From the IMG/VR virus record IMGVR_UViG_3300045988_138358: a DNA stretch of 64,000 bases; one strand, 5' to 3'. The DNA comes from a virus. Lineage: Duplodnaviria > Heunggongvirae > Uroviricota > Caudoviricetes. A program made the position numbers and the translations under genes. The notes below the pieces were generated by a model that ran no database searches, had not been told where the DNA came from, and saw only the letters and a list, made by a program, of their open reading frames with translations. Positions 2,487 through 64,000 of this stretch are shown here, in pieces; within the stretch, counting starts at the first letter, position 1; each line of letters begins with the position of its first letter.

Positions 2487-2506
2487 TGGTCAAAACTCTA
2501 TTTTAA

Positions 2507-2529
2507 GGCTGCAAATTGCAGCCTTTTTT
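2507..2529 (+). terminator. rho-independent terminator after parR
   Basis: GGCTGCAA/TTGCAGCC stem followed by a T-run. Confidence 0.6.
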
Positions 2530-3802: not shown

Positions 3803-3830
3803 AAAAAGCCCCAGGCGGGGCTTTTTCTAT
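3803..3830. terminator. bidirectional hairpin terminator between parG-like and dam
   Basis: GCCCC-AGGC-GGGGC stem with A-run before and T-run after; sits where two converging genes meet. Confidence 0.55.
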
Positions 3831-10435: not shown

Positions 10436-10466
10436 AAAAGCCCACTTAGCAAGTGGGCTTTCCTTT
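10436..10466 (+). terminator. hairpin terminator after higA
   Basis: GCCCACT-TAGCA-AGTGGGC stem followed by a T-rich tract. Confidence 0.45.
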
Positions 10467-13301: not shown

Positions 13302-13955
13302 TCAAAGTATCACGGTATCTTCATCAACTTCTTTCCCAGTCAGTGTCTTTGACTGGGAGGTGCCTGCTTTAACTTTTTCATGCCCAATAATGGACAGGAA
13401 CGAAGCGAGTATGCCTGTTTTTTGCTCTTTCTCGACTGTACCGGTCATCTGCTCTACGTAATCCGCACTGGCTACATTGTGGTATACGGTCGCGTAGCAA
13501 CACAGGATCATCAAAATATGCTCCGGCCTGATATCCTGCCAGTTCACCCGGTAGACTTCTTCTCCGTTACCGTTGTATTCGGTGTCAACGATGGAGTCAG
13601 GGATTTCGAAAGCACCTTTGTTATTTTGCGGCAGGGATAATAGCTTCTGGAGTTTTAACTCTCTGTATCTTTCCATCCCGACGATGATTGCTGCTCTGCC
13701 ATCGGCATGACGGGTCTTGAGAGTCACCTGGCTTGCTCCGGTGCCAGCGGAGATCGTTGGCGTAATTTCGTCTACCAGTACCTTAAATTTGCTTTTCCGC
13801 AGGGCTGCTATAGCTGGAGGAATTTTTTGCTTTTGCTCCAATGCTGACGCGGGAAGGGGTTTTACTTCGTTAATAATGAGAGCACCGTCTTTCAGTATTG
13901 CAGTGAGCATTTGAGGCTTGCTGGTGGTCAGGCTGAATATTGCGATCTTTTCCAT
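13302..13955 (-). CDS. hypothetical protein
   Basis: Start set at MEKIAIFSL with a GGAGGAAGG ribosome-binding site (track start 13997). Confidence 0.5.
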   Translation of the reverse strand: MEKIAIFSLTTSKPQMLTAILKDGALIINEVKPLPASALEQKQKIPPAIAALRKSKFKVLVDEITPTISAGTGASQVTLKTRHADGRAAIIVGMERYRELKLQKLLSLPQNNKGAFEIPDSIVDTEYNGNGEEVYRVNWQDIRPEHILMILCCYATVYHNVASADYVEQMTGTVEKEQKTGILASFLSIIGHEKVKAGTSQSKTLTGKEVDEDTVIL

Positions 13956-26308: not shown

Positions 26309-26347
26309 TCACCATGCTAAAATCCCCTCAATTCACAGAGGGGATTT

Positions 26348-26620
26348 TTGTATATGTTGCATAGAGTTTTATGGAAAAGCGTTATTGTCGGCGCGATACT
26401 GGCTATATCTGGGTGTGCAATGGTGCAATACAACGACGGTGAAAAGGTAAGCATACAGTCAGATGGTTGGTATGGCCTGGATAGCCTGCAAAAAACCGCA
26501 GATAAAGCCTGTCAGCAATATGGGAAGTCTAAAGCAGTATATCAGCATAGCGCGAACGCTAACCCTCATCTAGCGCCCGGTTCTGGTGTTCAGAATACCA
26601 TCTGGAAATGTGAGCCTTAA
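26348..26620 (+). CDS. small lipoprotein (putative)
   Basis: Signal peptide ending in lipobox-like LAISGC. Confidence 0.45.
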
Positions 26621-27387: not shown

Positions 27388-27432
27388 GGCGCATAAAGAA
27401 GCCCGCCAGACCAGGCGGGCTTTTTGTTGATA

Positions 27433-36547: not shown

Positions 36548-36936
36548 AAAGCAACACCACGCTTTTTAACGGCGGCATTCCACAGCTTATTCGCCATGTC
36601 CACCAGCTCTCGTTGCTCTTTTCGCGCCTGTTCGACTGATTTCCTGCTACAGTTTTTAACCAGTAAGCTACCGTATTCAGGGGTGCGCCCGCGCACCTTG
36701 AACTGATATCCGTTCAGGCCATGCAACCAGTATTTCCGTGGGTAAACACGATCATCAAGCTCACAAATAGCTCGGCTTGACCGCACAAAATGCCGAATGA
36801 TGTTGGTTACACTTACTCGTGAAACATGAAGGTGAGGATATTTTTCTTTAGCTAGAGTGGTGATTTCGGTGACTGTCAGATAGCAGTCAGCCCTAATCAT
36901 GATATCCGCAATTTCTGCGCTGCTGATATGCTCCAT
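36544..36936 (-). CDS. small HTH protein upstream of pacA, possible late-promoter activator (Lpa-like)
   Basis: 130 aa; first gene after an operator pair; assignment is by position only. Confidence 0.3.
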   Translation of the reverse strand: MEHISSAEIADIMIRADCYLTVTEITTLAKEKYPHLHVSRVSVTNIIRHFVRSSRAICELDDRVYPRKYWLHGLNGYQFKVRGRTPEYGSLLVKNCSRKSVEQARKEQRELVDMANKLWNAAVKKRGVAL

Positions 36937-37011
36937 TAATCCCCCAGGCAGGAAATGACCGAGGGGATGATAATGAGAATGTTATTTCTGTATAGACTGG
37001 CAAAAAGTTGG

Positions 37012-42189: not shown

Positions 42190-42216
42190 AAAAAACCCGC
42201 TAATCGGCGGGTTTTT
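42190..42216. terminator. bidirectional hairpin terminator
   Basis: A-run, CCCGC-TAATCG-GCGGG stem, T-run. Confidence 0.6.
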
Positions 42217-54113: not shown

Positions 54114-54173
54114 CAGATAGTTCCGTGCAAAAATCTATCTACCGTATAAATCTATGCCAGTGGATTTATACAC

Positions 54174-54207
54174 CAAAAAGCCGCTTCTCAGCGGCTTTTG
54201 CTTTTTT
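54174..54207. terminator. bidirectional hairpin terminator
   Basis: A-run, GCCGC-TTCTCA-GCGGC stem, T-run. Confidence 0.55.
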
Positions 54208-62953: not shown

Positions 62954-63279
62954 TATTTCTCTCCACCTTTTCCCCCATTCGCTATTACGCTTAAGAGATT
63001 CAAGACGTTACTAGCTCTGGACTTCAAGCCCTGTAAAATTTCACTACCGTTGTTACTGGCAATCAGAACAACGCAGAAAATGATACCTTCAGGCCATTCT
63101 TGGCTAACCGCCACCCCATACCCCGCAAGCCCGGCTGTTACCGCAGTAAACAATTCACTCGCAAGATTGAGCAGGGACGCAGAAATGCGCCCGTCTCTAA
63201 CTCCGAGAAGGAATACGCCGGTTCCACTTAGTAGGGATGTTATGACTACTACAGCCAGATTTTCATAATCTGCAAACAT
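62953..63279 (-). CDS. holin-like membrane protein (LydA-like)
   Basis: 108 aa with three predicted transmembrane helices; first gene of the operon. Confidence 0.45.
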   Translation of the reverse strand: MFADYENLAVVVITSLLSGTGVFLLGVRDGRISASLLNLASELFTAVTAGLAGYGVAVSQEWPEGIIFCVVLIASNNGSEILQGLKSRASNVLNLLSVIANGGKGGEK

Positions 63280-63357
63280 ACCCCTCCAGAAATAACATCT
63301 AATGCGCCACTAACTTAGTCAGTTTGTTATTTCCTTACAGGACATCTTCTAGAATCT

Positions 63358-63380
63358 CCCCCCTTAACATACAAGGGGGG
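63358..63380 (+). promoter_or_regulatory. hairpin that sequesters the cin ribosome-binding site
   Basis: CCCCCCTT-AACATAC-AAGGGGGG; the 3' arm is the only Shine-Dalgarno-like sequence, 4 nt before the cin ATG. Confidence 0.4.
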
Positions 63381-63384
63381 ACAT

Positions 63385-63945
63385 ATGCTTATTGGATACA
63401 TTCGCGTATCAACTAATGACCAAAACACCGCTTTACAACGAAACGCCCTTGAAAGCGCAGGATGTGAGCTAATTTTTGAGGATAAGGCGAGCGGCAAAAA
63501 GGCTGAACGCCCAGGGTTAAAAAAGGTTCTGCGTATTCTTTCCAGAGGTGACACCCTGGTCGTATGGAAGTTAGATCGTCTTGGGCGCAGCATGCGTCAC
63601 TTGGTTGTGCTGGTGGAAGAGCTGCGTGACAGAGGCATTAACTTCCGGAGTCTCACTGACTCCATCGACACCAGTACACCAATGGGGCGCTTTTTCTTTC
63701 ACGTAATGGGGGCGCTGGCAGAAATGGAACGTGAGCTTATCATTGAACGTACACGCGCTGGACTTGATGCAGCTCGCGCAGAAGGTCGTATAGGTGGGCG
63801 TCGGCCTAAATACCAAGAAGAAACATGGCAGCAAATGCGGCGATTGCTGGAGAAGGGCATCCCTCGTAAGCAAGTTGCAATCATCTATGATGTGGCTGTT
63901 TCCACGCTTTATAAGAAGTTTCCGGCATCATCATTTCAATCCTAA
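63385..63945 (+). CDS. cin: serine DNA invertase Cin
   Basis: MLIGYIRVSTNDQNT...TLVVWKLDRLGRSM...GRFFFHVMGALAEMERELIIERT...GIPRKQVAIIYDVAVSTLYKK, near-identical in pattern to P1 Cin and the Hin/Gin family. Confidence 0.9.
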   Translation: MLIGYIRVSTNDQNTALQRNALESAGCELIFEDKASGKKAERPGLKKVLRILSRGDTLVVWKLDRLGRSMRHLVVLVEELRDRGINFRSLTDSIDTSTPMGRFFFHVMGALAEMERELIIERTRAGLDAARAEGRIGGRRPKYQEETWQQMRRLLEKGIPRKQVAIIYDVAVSTLYKKFPASSFQS

Positions 63946-63962
63946 ACCTTGGTTTAAGAGAA
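63937..63962. other. cix-like inversion crossover site
   Basis: CAATCCTAAACC-TT-GGTTTAAGAGAA: 12-bp imperfect inverted half-sites around a 2-bp core, overlapping the cin stop codon. Confidence 0.65.
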
Positions 63963-64000
63963 CTCGGTACCAGCGGTGAAAAGATCCCCCTGTTGAGTAC

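What the first reader, a model, noticed from the sequence alone, without database searches (positions are those of the whole stretch)
63358..63962. Cin invertase with a hairpin over its ribosome-binding site and a cix site at its stop codon
The only Shine-Dalgarno-like sequence for cin (AAGGGGGG) is the 3' arm of a perfect 8-bp hairpin, implying translational control. A 26-bp cix-like site overlaps the cin stop codon, so the invertible tail-fibre segment probably begins at the right edge of the window and is cut off here.
Basis: partly seen in the sequence, partly recalled or inferred. Interest (0 to 1): 0.5.

Follow-up and report, generated by a model that had tools for sequence, protein, structure and literature searches.

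The report
Known Cin/cix tail-fibre switch, D6-like phage
The window ends in the already described Cin invertase gene and its cixL crossover site from a D6-like, P1-family phage-plasmid. The hairpin over the ribosome-binding site is real, but it is lineage-specific, variable and of unproven function, so the finding is largely ordinary.

Summary
All three observations are in the sequence.

- **cin:** 63385-63945 (+) encodes a 186-aa serine invertase. It is 96% identical in DNA to P1 cin and 99.6% to the annotated phage D6.
- **Hairpin:** a perfect 9-bp stem (63357-65 / 63373-81, -15.7 kcal/mol) contains the only Shine-Dalgarno sequence.
- **cixL:** 63937-63962 is identical to P1 cixL and covers the stop codon.

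The window stops 38 bp past cixL. In D6, in pLD93-1-90kb (99.8% identical to the window) and in P1, an inverted cixR lies 4.0-4.3 kb further on. Relatives carry the segment in both orientations, with homology breaking at the crossover. The switch reading is therefore correct, but it is already known.

The inference of translational control is only partly supported.
- The RBS is among the most occluded in D6 (rank 5 of 117 genes).
- P1 and the divergent D6-like types lack this stem.
- The arms are the most variable part of the region, with no compensatory changes.
- A conserved -10-like hexamer 1 nt upstream may place the transcription start inside the 5' arm.

The likeliest role is a constitutive brake on Cin translation, possibly acting only on read-through transcripts. 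It may equally be an incidental structure.

The parts
63385..63945 (+). cin: a 186-aa serine DNA invertase. The nucleophile Ser9 lies in YIRVSTNDQ. The protein has an N-terminal Resolvase domain and a C-terminal HTH_7 domain.
   Evidence: ORF and translation. Pfam. 96.3% DNA identity to P1 cin and 99.6% to D6. Gin structure 3uj3 at E=4e-89.
63357..63381 (+). Perfect 9-bp stem with a 7-nt loop: 5' arm TCCCCCCTT (63357-65), loop AACATAC (63366-72), 3' arm AAGGGGGGA (63373-81). The 3' arm is the Shine-Dalgarno sequence, 4 nt before the ATG.
   Evidence: Sequence. -15.7 kcal/mol with 0 of 200 shuffles as stable. RBS opening energy 16.9 kcal/mol, rank 5 of 117 D6 genes.
63350..63355 (+). -10-like hexamer TAGAAT, 1 nt upstream of the 5' arm. 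It is a candidate cin promoter element (inferred, not mapped).
   Evidence: A hexamer of the form TAGAAT, TAAAAT, TAGGAT or TAATAT is kept at this position in every upstream type, including the divergent E. marmotae and Shigella types. No acceptable -35 was found, and the consensus scan did not call it.
63403..63474 (.). Recombinational enhancer (sis) inside the 5' part of cin, assigned by homology. Candidate Fis sites lie at 63406-20 and 63455-69, with centres 49 bp apart.
   Evidence: The P1 record annotates the enhancer at cin nt 19-90. The window is 68/72 identical there, with no indels. Fis-like G-N13-C 15-mers. Function not tested.
63937..63962 (+). cixL, the 26-bp crossover site: outer half CAATCCTAAACC (the last two cin codons plus TAA), core TT (63949-50), inner half GGTTTAAGAGAA.
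   Evidence: Identical to the P1 cixL region and to the annotated D6 cixL. It is the only such site in the 64-kb window.
63947..64000 (.). First 54 nt of the left inverted repeat, which is the left end of the invertible C segment. It is truncated by the window edge.
   Evidence: In D6 the repeat runs 198 nt at 93% complementarity, from cixL to cixR. The window tail is found at L176 12902 onward, followed by tail-fibre genes.

Best explanation
The window ends in the left end of the Cin/cix tail-fibre host-range switch of a D6-like, P1-family phage-plasmid.

How the switch works. Cin is a small serine invertase. Its gene carries the Fis-dependent enhancer in its first ~90 nt. Its last two codons and stop codon form the outer half of cixL. 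Strand exchange at the TT core (63949-50), 4 nt past the stop codon, leaves cin intact. It flips the ~4-kb C segment (Sv'U' / U Sv) against the constant part of the tail-fibre gene S. The partner site cixR lies outside the window.

The hairpin. It is real and lies over the Shine-Dalgarno sequence. The most likely role is a constitutive brake on Cin translation, which would fit the infrequent inversion. The brake would act on all cin transcripts if transcription starts upstream of 63357. It would act only on read-through transcripts if the -10-like TAGAAT is the promoter, because transcription would then start inside the 5' arm. It is not shown to be a responsive regulator, and it is not a conserved feature of the Cin system.

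Shown versus inferred. Shown: gene identity, site identity, the second site and both orientations in relatives, and the stability and variability of the stem. Inferred: enhancer function, promoter position, and any effect on translation.
For: Identity of the locus:
- 99.6% to annotated phage D6, and 96% to P1 from 63383 onward.
- Pfam Resolvase plus HTH_7; Gin structure match.
- The D6 and P1 records annotate cin, cixL, cixR, the enhancer and the C segment.
- cixL is identical in the window, D6, pLD93-1 and P1, and each complete relative has one inverted cixR 4.0-4.3 kb away.

Natural inversion:
- The C-segment interior of pLD93-1 is reversed relative to D6 and P1.
- An in-silico inverted junction is matched over at least 80% of its length in 18 plasmids.
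- The segment next to cin in pLD93-1 is 99.8% identical to a segment fused to the tail-fibre gene in pL9-1. Homology begins inside cix, at ...TTATCCAATACC|TT|GGTTTAAGAGAA.
- The literature describes Cin-mediated, infrequent C-segment inversion (10.1101/2022.07.24.501295; PMC6799933).

Hairpin:
- -15.7 kcal/mol, 0 of 200 shuffles as stable.
- Opening energy rank 5 of 117 D6 genes.
- Every D6-type allele with an intact cin keeps at least 7 pairs, and the 5'-arm changes are C-to-T, which gives G.U in RNA.
- Unrelated upstream sequences of other invertase genes also tend to pair with their Shine-Dalgarno sequence: P1 GCUUGCUAU/AUAGUGAGC, Erwinia AUGCUGCCU/AGGCAGCAU, and Enterobacter CACCUGAU.../...GGGUG. 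Mean z at cluster level is 0.75, Wilcoxon p=0.017.
Against: Switch: the window itself contains only one cix, so inversion in this particular molecule is inferred from relatives.

Hairpin:
- P1 cin has an entirely different leader.
- The E. marmotae- and Shigella-type leaders of intact cin genes have background-level occlusion, 7-10 kcal/mol against a D6 median of 7.8.
- Among intact D6-type alleles the opening energy ranges from 6.8 to 17.7 kcal/mol.
- Six of the 12 variable columns fall in the 19 arm columns (Fisher p=9e-5), and none is a compensatory double change. This is not the signature of purifying selection on a structure.
- If transcription starts 7 nt after TAGAAT, at 63362, the leader folds at only -2.6 kcal/mol.
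- There is no Rfam match.
- Other D6 genes, such as lpa, have equally occluded RBSs, so the feature is not unique.
Confidence: 0.7

Rival explanations
1. The hairpin has no function. It is an incidental complement between a G-run Shine-Dalgarno sequence and a C-rich stretch just downstream of the cin promoter. The cin transcript starts inside the 5' arm, so the stem never forms in the mRNA that matters.
For: A -10-like hexamer lies 1 nt upstream of the arm and is conserved across all leader types. A leader starting at 63362 is essentially unstructured, at -2.6 kcal/mol. The arms are the most variable part of the region, and G-run and C-run lengths vary (G4-G7, C6-C8) as expected for slippage-prone homopolymers. 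The stem is absent from P1 and from the divergent D6-like types.
Against: A perfect 9-bp stem at one given RBS is improbable by chance: about 7e-4 per gene by my arithmetic, and z -2.8. Alleles with an intact cin never carry a pair-breaking transversion in the 5' arm, whereas the GTATCCTT allele, found only with a disrupted cin, does. This involves few independent events and is confounded by phylogeny. There is also a weak family-wide tendency to occlude the Shine-Dalgarno sequence.
Confidence: 0.35
2. The hairpin is a responsive translational switch, which is the strict reading of the first reader's 'translational control'. It would open in response to temperature, a trans-acting RNA or protein, or upstream translation, to time Cin synthesis.
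For: The Shine-Dalgarno sequence is fully inside the stem. Invertase levels plausibly need control.
Against: A perfect, GC-rich stem of -15.7 kcal/mol is far too stable to melt physiologically, and it has no bulges or mismatches. There is no Rfam family. No alternative conserved pairing partner was seen, and no credible upstream ORF would unfold it; the only upstream reading frame lacks a Shine-Dalgarno sequence, by inspection. Stability varies by about 10 kcal/mol among functional alleles.
Confidence: 0.06
3. The inverted repeat acts in DNA, as an operator for a dimeric regulator that overlaps the cin transcription start (TCCCCCCTT-N7-AAGGGGGGA).
For: Perfect dyad symmetry immediately downstream of a -10-like hexamer. 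The loop or spacer AACATAC is invariant among D6-type alleles while the arms vary.
Against: Operator half-sites would be expected to be conserved, but here they are the most variable positions, and arm lengths change through indels. The motif occurs nowhere else in the window; it is one of 10 hairpins of unrelated sequence. No candidate binding protein was identified.
Confidence: 0.06
4. The hairpin is a transcription terminator or insulator between the divergent lydA/dar late operon and cin, or it acts against antisense transcripts coming from the tail-fibre operon.
For: Most of the other perfect hairpins in the window look like bidirectional terminators, with A-run / T-run flanks.
Against: There is no T-run after the stem on either strand, and the terminator scan does not call it. 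It lies between the promoter-like element and the start codon of cin, and downstream of nothing on the minus strand except the antisense of cin.
Confidence: 0.03

Closest known systems
Phage P1 Cin / cixL-cixR C-segment inversion system, with its annotated counterpart in phage D6 (MF356679)
   Same: cin is 96% identical in DNA to P1 and 99.6% to D6. The 26-bp cixL is identical and overlaps the stop codon. The enhancer lies in the 5' part of cin. The neighbours are the same (lydB, lydA upstream on the other strand; Sv', U', U, S, R downstream in relatives).
   Different: Upstream of the ATG, homology to P1 stops at 63383. P1 has lydC and its own predicted promoters P1cin and P2cin there, plus a different and weaker stem over its Shine-Dalgarno sequence. 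There is nothing different from D6.
Mu Gin/gix, Salmonella Hin/hix, e14 Pin and p15B Min (the Din family of Fis- and enhancer-dependent serine invertases)
   Same: The same protein fold and domain order (Gin 3uj3, E=4e-89). 26-bp sites with an AAACC-NN-GGTTT core. An enhancer inside the invertase gene. Tail-fibre or flagellin switching (family properties are from my own knowledge).
   Different: In the Mu/Pin-type homologues fetched here, a crossover half-site lies about 70 nt upstream of the invertase gene, so the gene sits downstream of the invertible segment. A conserved TGGCAYNNT motif precedes the ATG. In P1 and D6, cin is transcribed towards the segment and the site is at its 3' end.
Shine-Dalgarno-occluding stems that set translation level, and the 'fold-back inhibition' of IS10/IS50 transposase read-through transcripts (both from my own knowledge, not retrieved here)
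   Same: The Shine-Dalgarno sequence is the 3' arm of a stable stem. A promoter-like -10 sits so close to the 5' arm that only transcripts initiated further upstream would contain the whole stem.
   Different: No transcription start site or expression data exist for cin in D6-like elements. There is no obvious strong sense-strand transcription entering cin from the left, because the upstream genes are on the other strand.

Membership tests
Din-family serine DNA invertases (Cin/Gin/Hin/Pin) | Small (~185-195 aa) protein with an N-terminal resolvase catalytic domain, a Ser nucleophile near residue 9-10, and a C-terminal HTH | tested here: met
   186 aa; YIRVS(9)TNDQ and the DRLGRS motif. Resolvase 5e-51 plus HTH_7 3e-18. 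Gin 3uj3 E=4e-89 over residues 1-182.
Din-family serine DNA invertases (Cin/Gin/Hin/Pin) | 26-bp crossover site: two imperfect 12-bp inverted half-sites around a 2-bp core | tested here: met
   CAATCCTAAACC-TT-GGTTTAAGAGAA at 63937-63962, identical to P1 cixL.
Din-family serine DNA invertases (Cin/Gin/Hin/Pin) | A second site in inverted orientation, bounding an invertible segment | tested here: met
   Met by proxy only. The window ends 38 bp after cixL and has no other site. D6 (99.6%), pLD93-1-90kb (99.8%) and P1 each have an inverted cixR 4.0-4.3 kb away, with 198-nt inverted repeats.
Din-family serine DNA invertases (Cin/Gin/Hin/Pin) | Fis-dependent recombinational enhancer in cis, inside the 5' part of the invertase gene | tested here: inconclusive
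   The sequence is homologous to the enhancer annotated in P1: 68/72 identical with no indels. There are two Fis-like 15-mers 49 bp apart. Fis binding and enhancer activity are not testable here.
Din-family serine DNA invertases (Cin/Gin/Hin/Pin) | The segment actually inverts at the crossover core | tested here: met
   Tested in relatives, not in this molecule. Both orientations and both junction types occur, and homology breaks at the cix core.
Translational repression by a Shine-Dalgarno-sequestering hairpin | A stable stem that includes the Shine-Dalgarno sequence | tested here: met
   9 bp, -15.7 kcal/mol; opening energy 16.9 kcal/mol, rank 5 of 117 D6 genes.
Translational repression by a Shine-Dalgarno-sequestering hairpin | Both arms are present in the mRNA (transcription start upstream of the 5' arm) | not testable with these tools
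   No transcription start data. The -10-like TAGAAT at 63350-55 predicts a start near 63362, inside the arm. The only scan-called promoter-like site, at 63242-69, would include the arm.
Translational repression by a Shine-Dalgarno-sequestering hairpin | The pairing is conserved or covaries among relatives | tested here: not met
   No compensatory double changes, and the arms are hypervariable (Fisher p=9e-5). Opening energy spans 6.8-17.7 kcal/mol among intact alleles. The stem is absent in P1 and in the E. marmotae and Shigella types. Only C-to-T (G.U-compatible) changes occur in intact alleles, which represents 2-3 events.
Known structured RNA families (Rfam) | Match to a curated covariance model | tested here: not met
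   No match at E<=1 in 63000-64000 on either strand.
Intrinsic terminator | GC-rich stem followed by a T-run | tested here: not met
   Not called by the scan, and there is no T-run on either strand.

The most novel reading that the evidence does not exclude
The stem is a fold-back insulator and tuning element. The cin promoter would start transcription inside the 5' arm, so that only read-through transcripts are translationally silenced, as for IS10/IS50 transposase. The slippage-prone C-run and G-run arms would set different Cin levels, and hence different inversion rates, in different lineages. Stems of unrelated sequence over the Shine-Dalgarno sequence of P1 cin and of the Erwinia, Enterobacter and Pin/Gin-type invertase genes would make occlusion of the invertase RBS a convergent design rule of this recombinase family.
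Probability: 0.18. Interest if true: 0.4.

Novelty: already known. Interest (0 to 1): 0.15.

Why it matters
The Cin/cix switch determines which of two tail fibres, and therefore which host range, a P1-family phage-plasmid displays. Such elements are common carriers of accessory genes in Enterobacteriaceae: this cin leader occurs on plasmids in 78 of 5,426 complete E. coli genomes. Recognising the switch here adds nothing new, because D6 is annotated. The one open point is how Cin output, and so inversion frequency, is set. If the variable RBS stem does this, it would be a simple, evolvable dial for the rate of host-range switching. That would be a modest advance.

Tried and rejected
- **Terminator reading of the hairpin.** Rejected: no T-run, and not called by the scan.
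- **Known RNA family.** None found.
- **Pseudo-cix in the cin promoter.** The hairpin region has no AAACC..GGTTT core, and the window has a single cix-like site.
- **Conservation of the stem in P1.** Homology to P1 stops 2 nt before the ATG. P1 has a different leader.
- **RNA thermometer.** Rejected on stability and on the absence of mismatches.
- **Lpa-box enrichment.** ACTAAGTTAGT at up to 2 mismatches gave 10 matches against 9.9 expected, so it cannot be used to define late promoters.
- **15-mer scan of viral contigs.** This gave mostly chance matches, which had to be filtered by requiring the cin start.
- **Family-wide occlusion test.** The uncorrected result (Mann-Whitney p=9e-4) shrinks to a weak trend once sequences are clustered (18 clusters, p=0.017). 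The 'partners upstream of the TSS' test is uninformative, because a 20-nt leader cannot hold a 5' arm.
- **Literature.** The P1 genome paper, the D6 genome paper and the 1982-83 EMBO J cin papers are not held. No held paper combines DNA invertase with Shine-Dalgarno and stem-loop. The searches for IS10 fold-back inhibition gave nothing citable.

Full report
**What is at the coordinates**

The ORF at 63385-63945 (+) encodes a 186-aa protein beginning MLIGYIRVSTNDQ. It has a Resolvase catalytic domain (5e-51) and an HTH_7 domain (3e-18). It matches the solved Gin invertase 3uj3 at E=4e-89 over residues 1-182.

Upstream, on the other strand, lie a 108-aa ORF that the D6 and plasmid records annotate as holin/lydA (no Pfam match here), a LydB antiholin and a DarA_N-domain protein. 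The last 1.1 kb of the window is 99.6% identical to phage D6 (MF356679). That record annotates this gene as a DNA invertase 'similar to P1 gene cin' and marks cixL at its 3' end. Over 6 kb the window is 99.8% identical to the E. coli plasmid pLD93-1-90kb. The window is therefore a D6-like, P1-family phage-plasmid.

**The cix site**

CAATCCTAAACC-TT-GGTTTAAGAGAA occupies 63937-63962. The cin stop codon TAA is at 63943-45 and the core dinucleotide at 63949-50.

From the cin ATG to the window end the sequence aligns with P1 without indels, and the cixL region is identical. The P1 record marks this position as the Cin binding site, as cixL, and as the crossover that forms the left boundary of the C segment. 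It is the only such site in the 64-kb window.

The 12-nt core alone would not be significant. The weight comes from identity to the defined P1 site.

**The second site and real inversion**

The window stops 38 bp past cixL, so the partner site cannot be seen in it. D6, pLD93-1-90kb and P1 each have exactly one further site, TTATCCAATACC-TT-GGTTTAAGAGAA, in inverted orientation 4.0-4.3 kb to the right. In D6 the two sites head 198-nt inverted repeats of 93% complementarity. The genes between and beyond them are Sv', U', U, S and R.

Three results show that the segment inverts in nature:
- The interior of the pLD93-1 segment aligns to D6 and P1 in reverse orientation.
- A junction built in silico from the cin 3' end plus the far end of the segment is matched over at least 80% of its length in 18 plasmids.
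- The segment next to cin in pLD93-1 recurs at 99.8% identity in pL9-1. There it is fused to the constant part of the tail-fibre gene, and homology begins at the cix core.

This matches the published description of Cin-mediated, infrequent C-segment inversion and of the D6-like tail-fibre inversion region.

**The enhancer**

P1 annotates the inversion enhancer at cin nt 19-90. The corresponding window stretch, 63403-63474, is 68/72 identical. It contains two Fis-like G-N13-C 15-mers whose centres are 49 bp apart. Function is inferred.

**The hairpin: is it real and unusual?**

TCCCCCCTT (63357-65), loop AACATAC, and AAGGGGGGA (63373-81) form a perfect 9-bp stem. The G-run is the only Shine-Dalgarno candidate, 4 nt before the ATG.
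- The isolated stem folds at -15.7 kcal/mol, and 0 of 200 shuffles fold as well. In a 61-nt context the value is -17.7 kcal/mol with z=-2.5.
- The window has 10 perfect hairpins of at least 9 bp, against 1.7 in shuffles. Most of the others look like terminators.
- Across the 117 annotated D6 genes, the energy needed to open the cin RBS (16.9 kcal/mol; median 7.8) ranks 5th.

The hairpin is therefore real and in the upper tail, but not unique. The late activator gene lpa is even more occluded.

**The hairpin: is it conserved?**

Homology to P1 starts only at 63383. P1 has lydC and a different leader, without this stem.

I collected 22 alleles of the leader from plasmids, viral contigs and metagenomes. 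The anchor was an invariant upstream block, so the sampling was blind to the stem.
- Intact cin genes go with C6/G6, C6/TAG6 and C6/G7 (opening energy about 17 kcal/mol), with CCTTCC or CCCTCC arms (10-11) and with CCTTCC/G5 (6.8).
- The E. marmotae- and Shigella-type leaders of intact cin genes are at background level (7-10).
- Among the 8 distinct intact D6-type haplotypes, 6 of the 12 variable columns fall in the 19 arm columns (Fisher p=9e-5). The loop is invariant.
- There is no compensatory double change. The 5'-arm changes in intact alleles are C-to-T, which is G.U-compatible in RNA, but they represent only 2-3 events.
- The one allele with pair-breaking changes (GTATCCTT) occurs only with a disrupted cin. 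This is suggestive but confounded by phylogeny.

This pattern fits a tunable or mutable element, or relaxed constraint. It does not fit a structure held by purifying selection.

**The hairpin: is it in the mRNA?**

A -10-like hexamer (TAGAAT here; TAAAAT, TAGGAT or TAATAT in other leader types) lies 1 nt upstream of the 5' arm, and a hexamer of this kind is kept in all leader types. A start 7 nt downstream, at 63362, would leave a leader that folds at only -2.6 kcal/mol.

The only promoter-like site called by the consensus scan, at 63242-69 inside the antisense of lydA, would include the whole stem. There are no transcription start data, so this point is undecided. It is also the decisive one.

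**Wider family**

In 53 invertase leaders from 18 sequence clusters, the region upstream of the Shine-Dalgarno sequence pairs with the RBS more than its own shuffles do. Mean z is 1.08, against 0.44 for D6 genes. At cluster level the mean is 0.75, with Wilcoxon p=0.017.

Unrelated stems occur at P1 cin (GCUUGCUAU/AUAGUGAGC, -12.7 kcal/mol but z only -1.2), in Erwinia (a perfect 9 bp covering the Shine-Dalgarno sequence and the ATG) and in an Enterobacter group. This is a weak trend and is not proof.

**Verdict**

The cin, cixL and truncated C-segment reading is correct and already known, because it is annotated in D6 and was defined experimentally in P1.

The hairpin observation is correct. 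Its interpretation as translational control is plausible only in the limited sense of a constitutive brake or a read-through insulator. An incidental origin is nearly as likely. There is no evidence for a responsive switch, and terminator, operator and known-RNA-family readings are disfavoured.

Noticed in passing
window 63290-63333: A perfect 9-bp inverted repeat, GAAATAACA (63290-98) / TGTTATTTC (63325-33), brackets the near-palindrome ACTAACTTAGT (63309-19). That near-palindrome resembles the -22 box of the P1 late promoter LPdar (AAGTTACTT) and lies upstream of lydA on the minus strand. The right arm sits in the block CAGTTTGTTATTTCC, which is invariant in all 10 aligned relatives. It may be a late-promoter or regulator site for the lysis/dar operon.
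   Followed up: partly
L003-L008, L010 and several viral and metagenome loci (e.g. L135, L141, L162, L169, L171, L177, L187): Many D6-like plasmids keep the leader and only a 21-64-codon stub or a disrupted copy of cin. At least two (L006, L007) carry a different invertase gene in the opposite orientation nearby. The tail-fibre switch therefore appears to have been remodelled or replaced repeatedly.
   Followed up: partly
window 63358-63363 and 63375-63380; alleles in L003, L004, L145, L179, L186: The C-run and G-run of the stem differ in length among close relatives (C6 or C8; G4, G5, G6, G7), while the flanking sequence is almost invariant. This could be homopolymer slippage or sequencing error.
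   Followed up: partly
window 36934-36968 (minus strand): The RBS of the late-gene activator gene (the lpa homologue) lies in a stem ATCCCC...GGGGGAT. In D6 the opening energy is 18.6 kcal/mol, rank 2 of 117, which is stronger than at cin.
   Followed up: no
L012-L068 (chromosomal Pin/Gin-type homologues): About 20 homologues share a motif TGGCAYNNT that ends about 26 nt before the ATG (predicted start at -18 to -21). It resembles an extended -10 element, or alternatively a sigma-54 -24/-12 element. A crossover-like half-site, CCAACGTTT, lies about 70 nt upstream.
   Followed up: partly
window 2505-2525, 3803-3826, 10437-10461, 13334-13358, 26319-26348, 27399-27422, 42191-42216, 54144-54171, 54176-54199: These are the nine other perfect hairpins of at least 9 bp (10 in total, against 1.7 expected). 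Several have A-run / T-run flanks typical of bidirectional intrinsic terminators.
   Followed up: no
window 63986: Inside the left inverted repeat the window reads accagCggtg. This matches the cixR-side repeat of D6 and both P1 repeats, whereas the D6 cixL-side repeat reads accagTggtg. The difference is consistent with exchange between the repeats.
   Followed up: no
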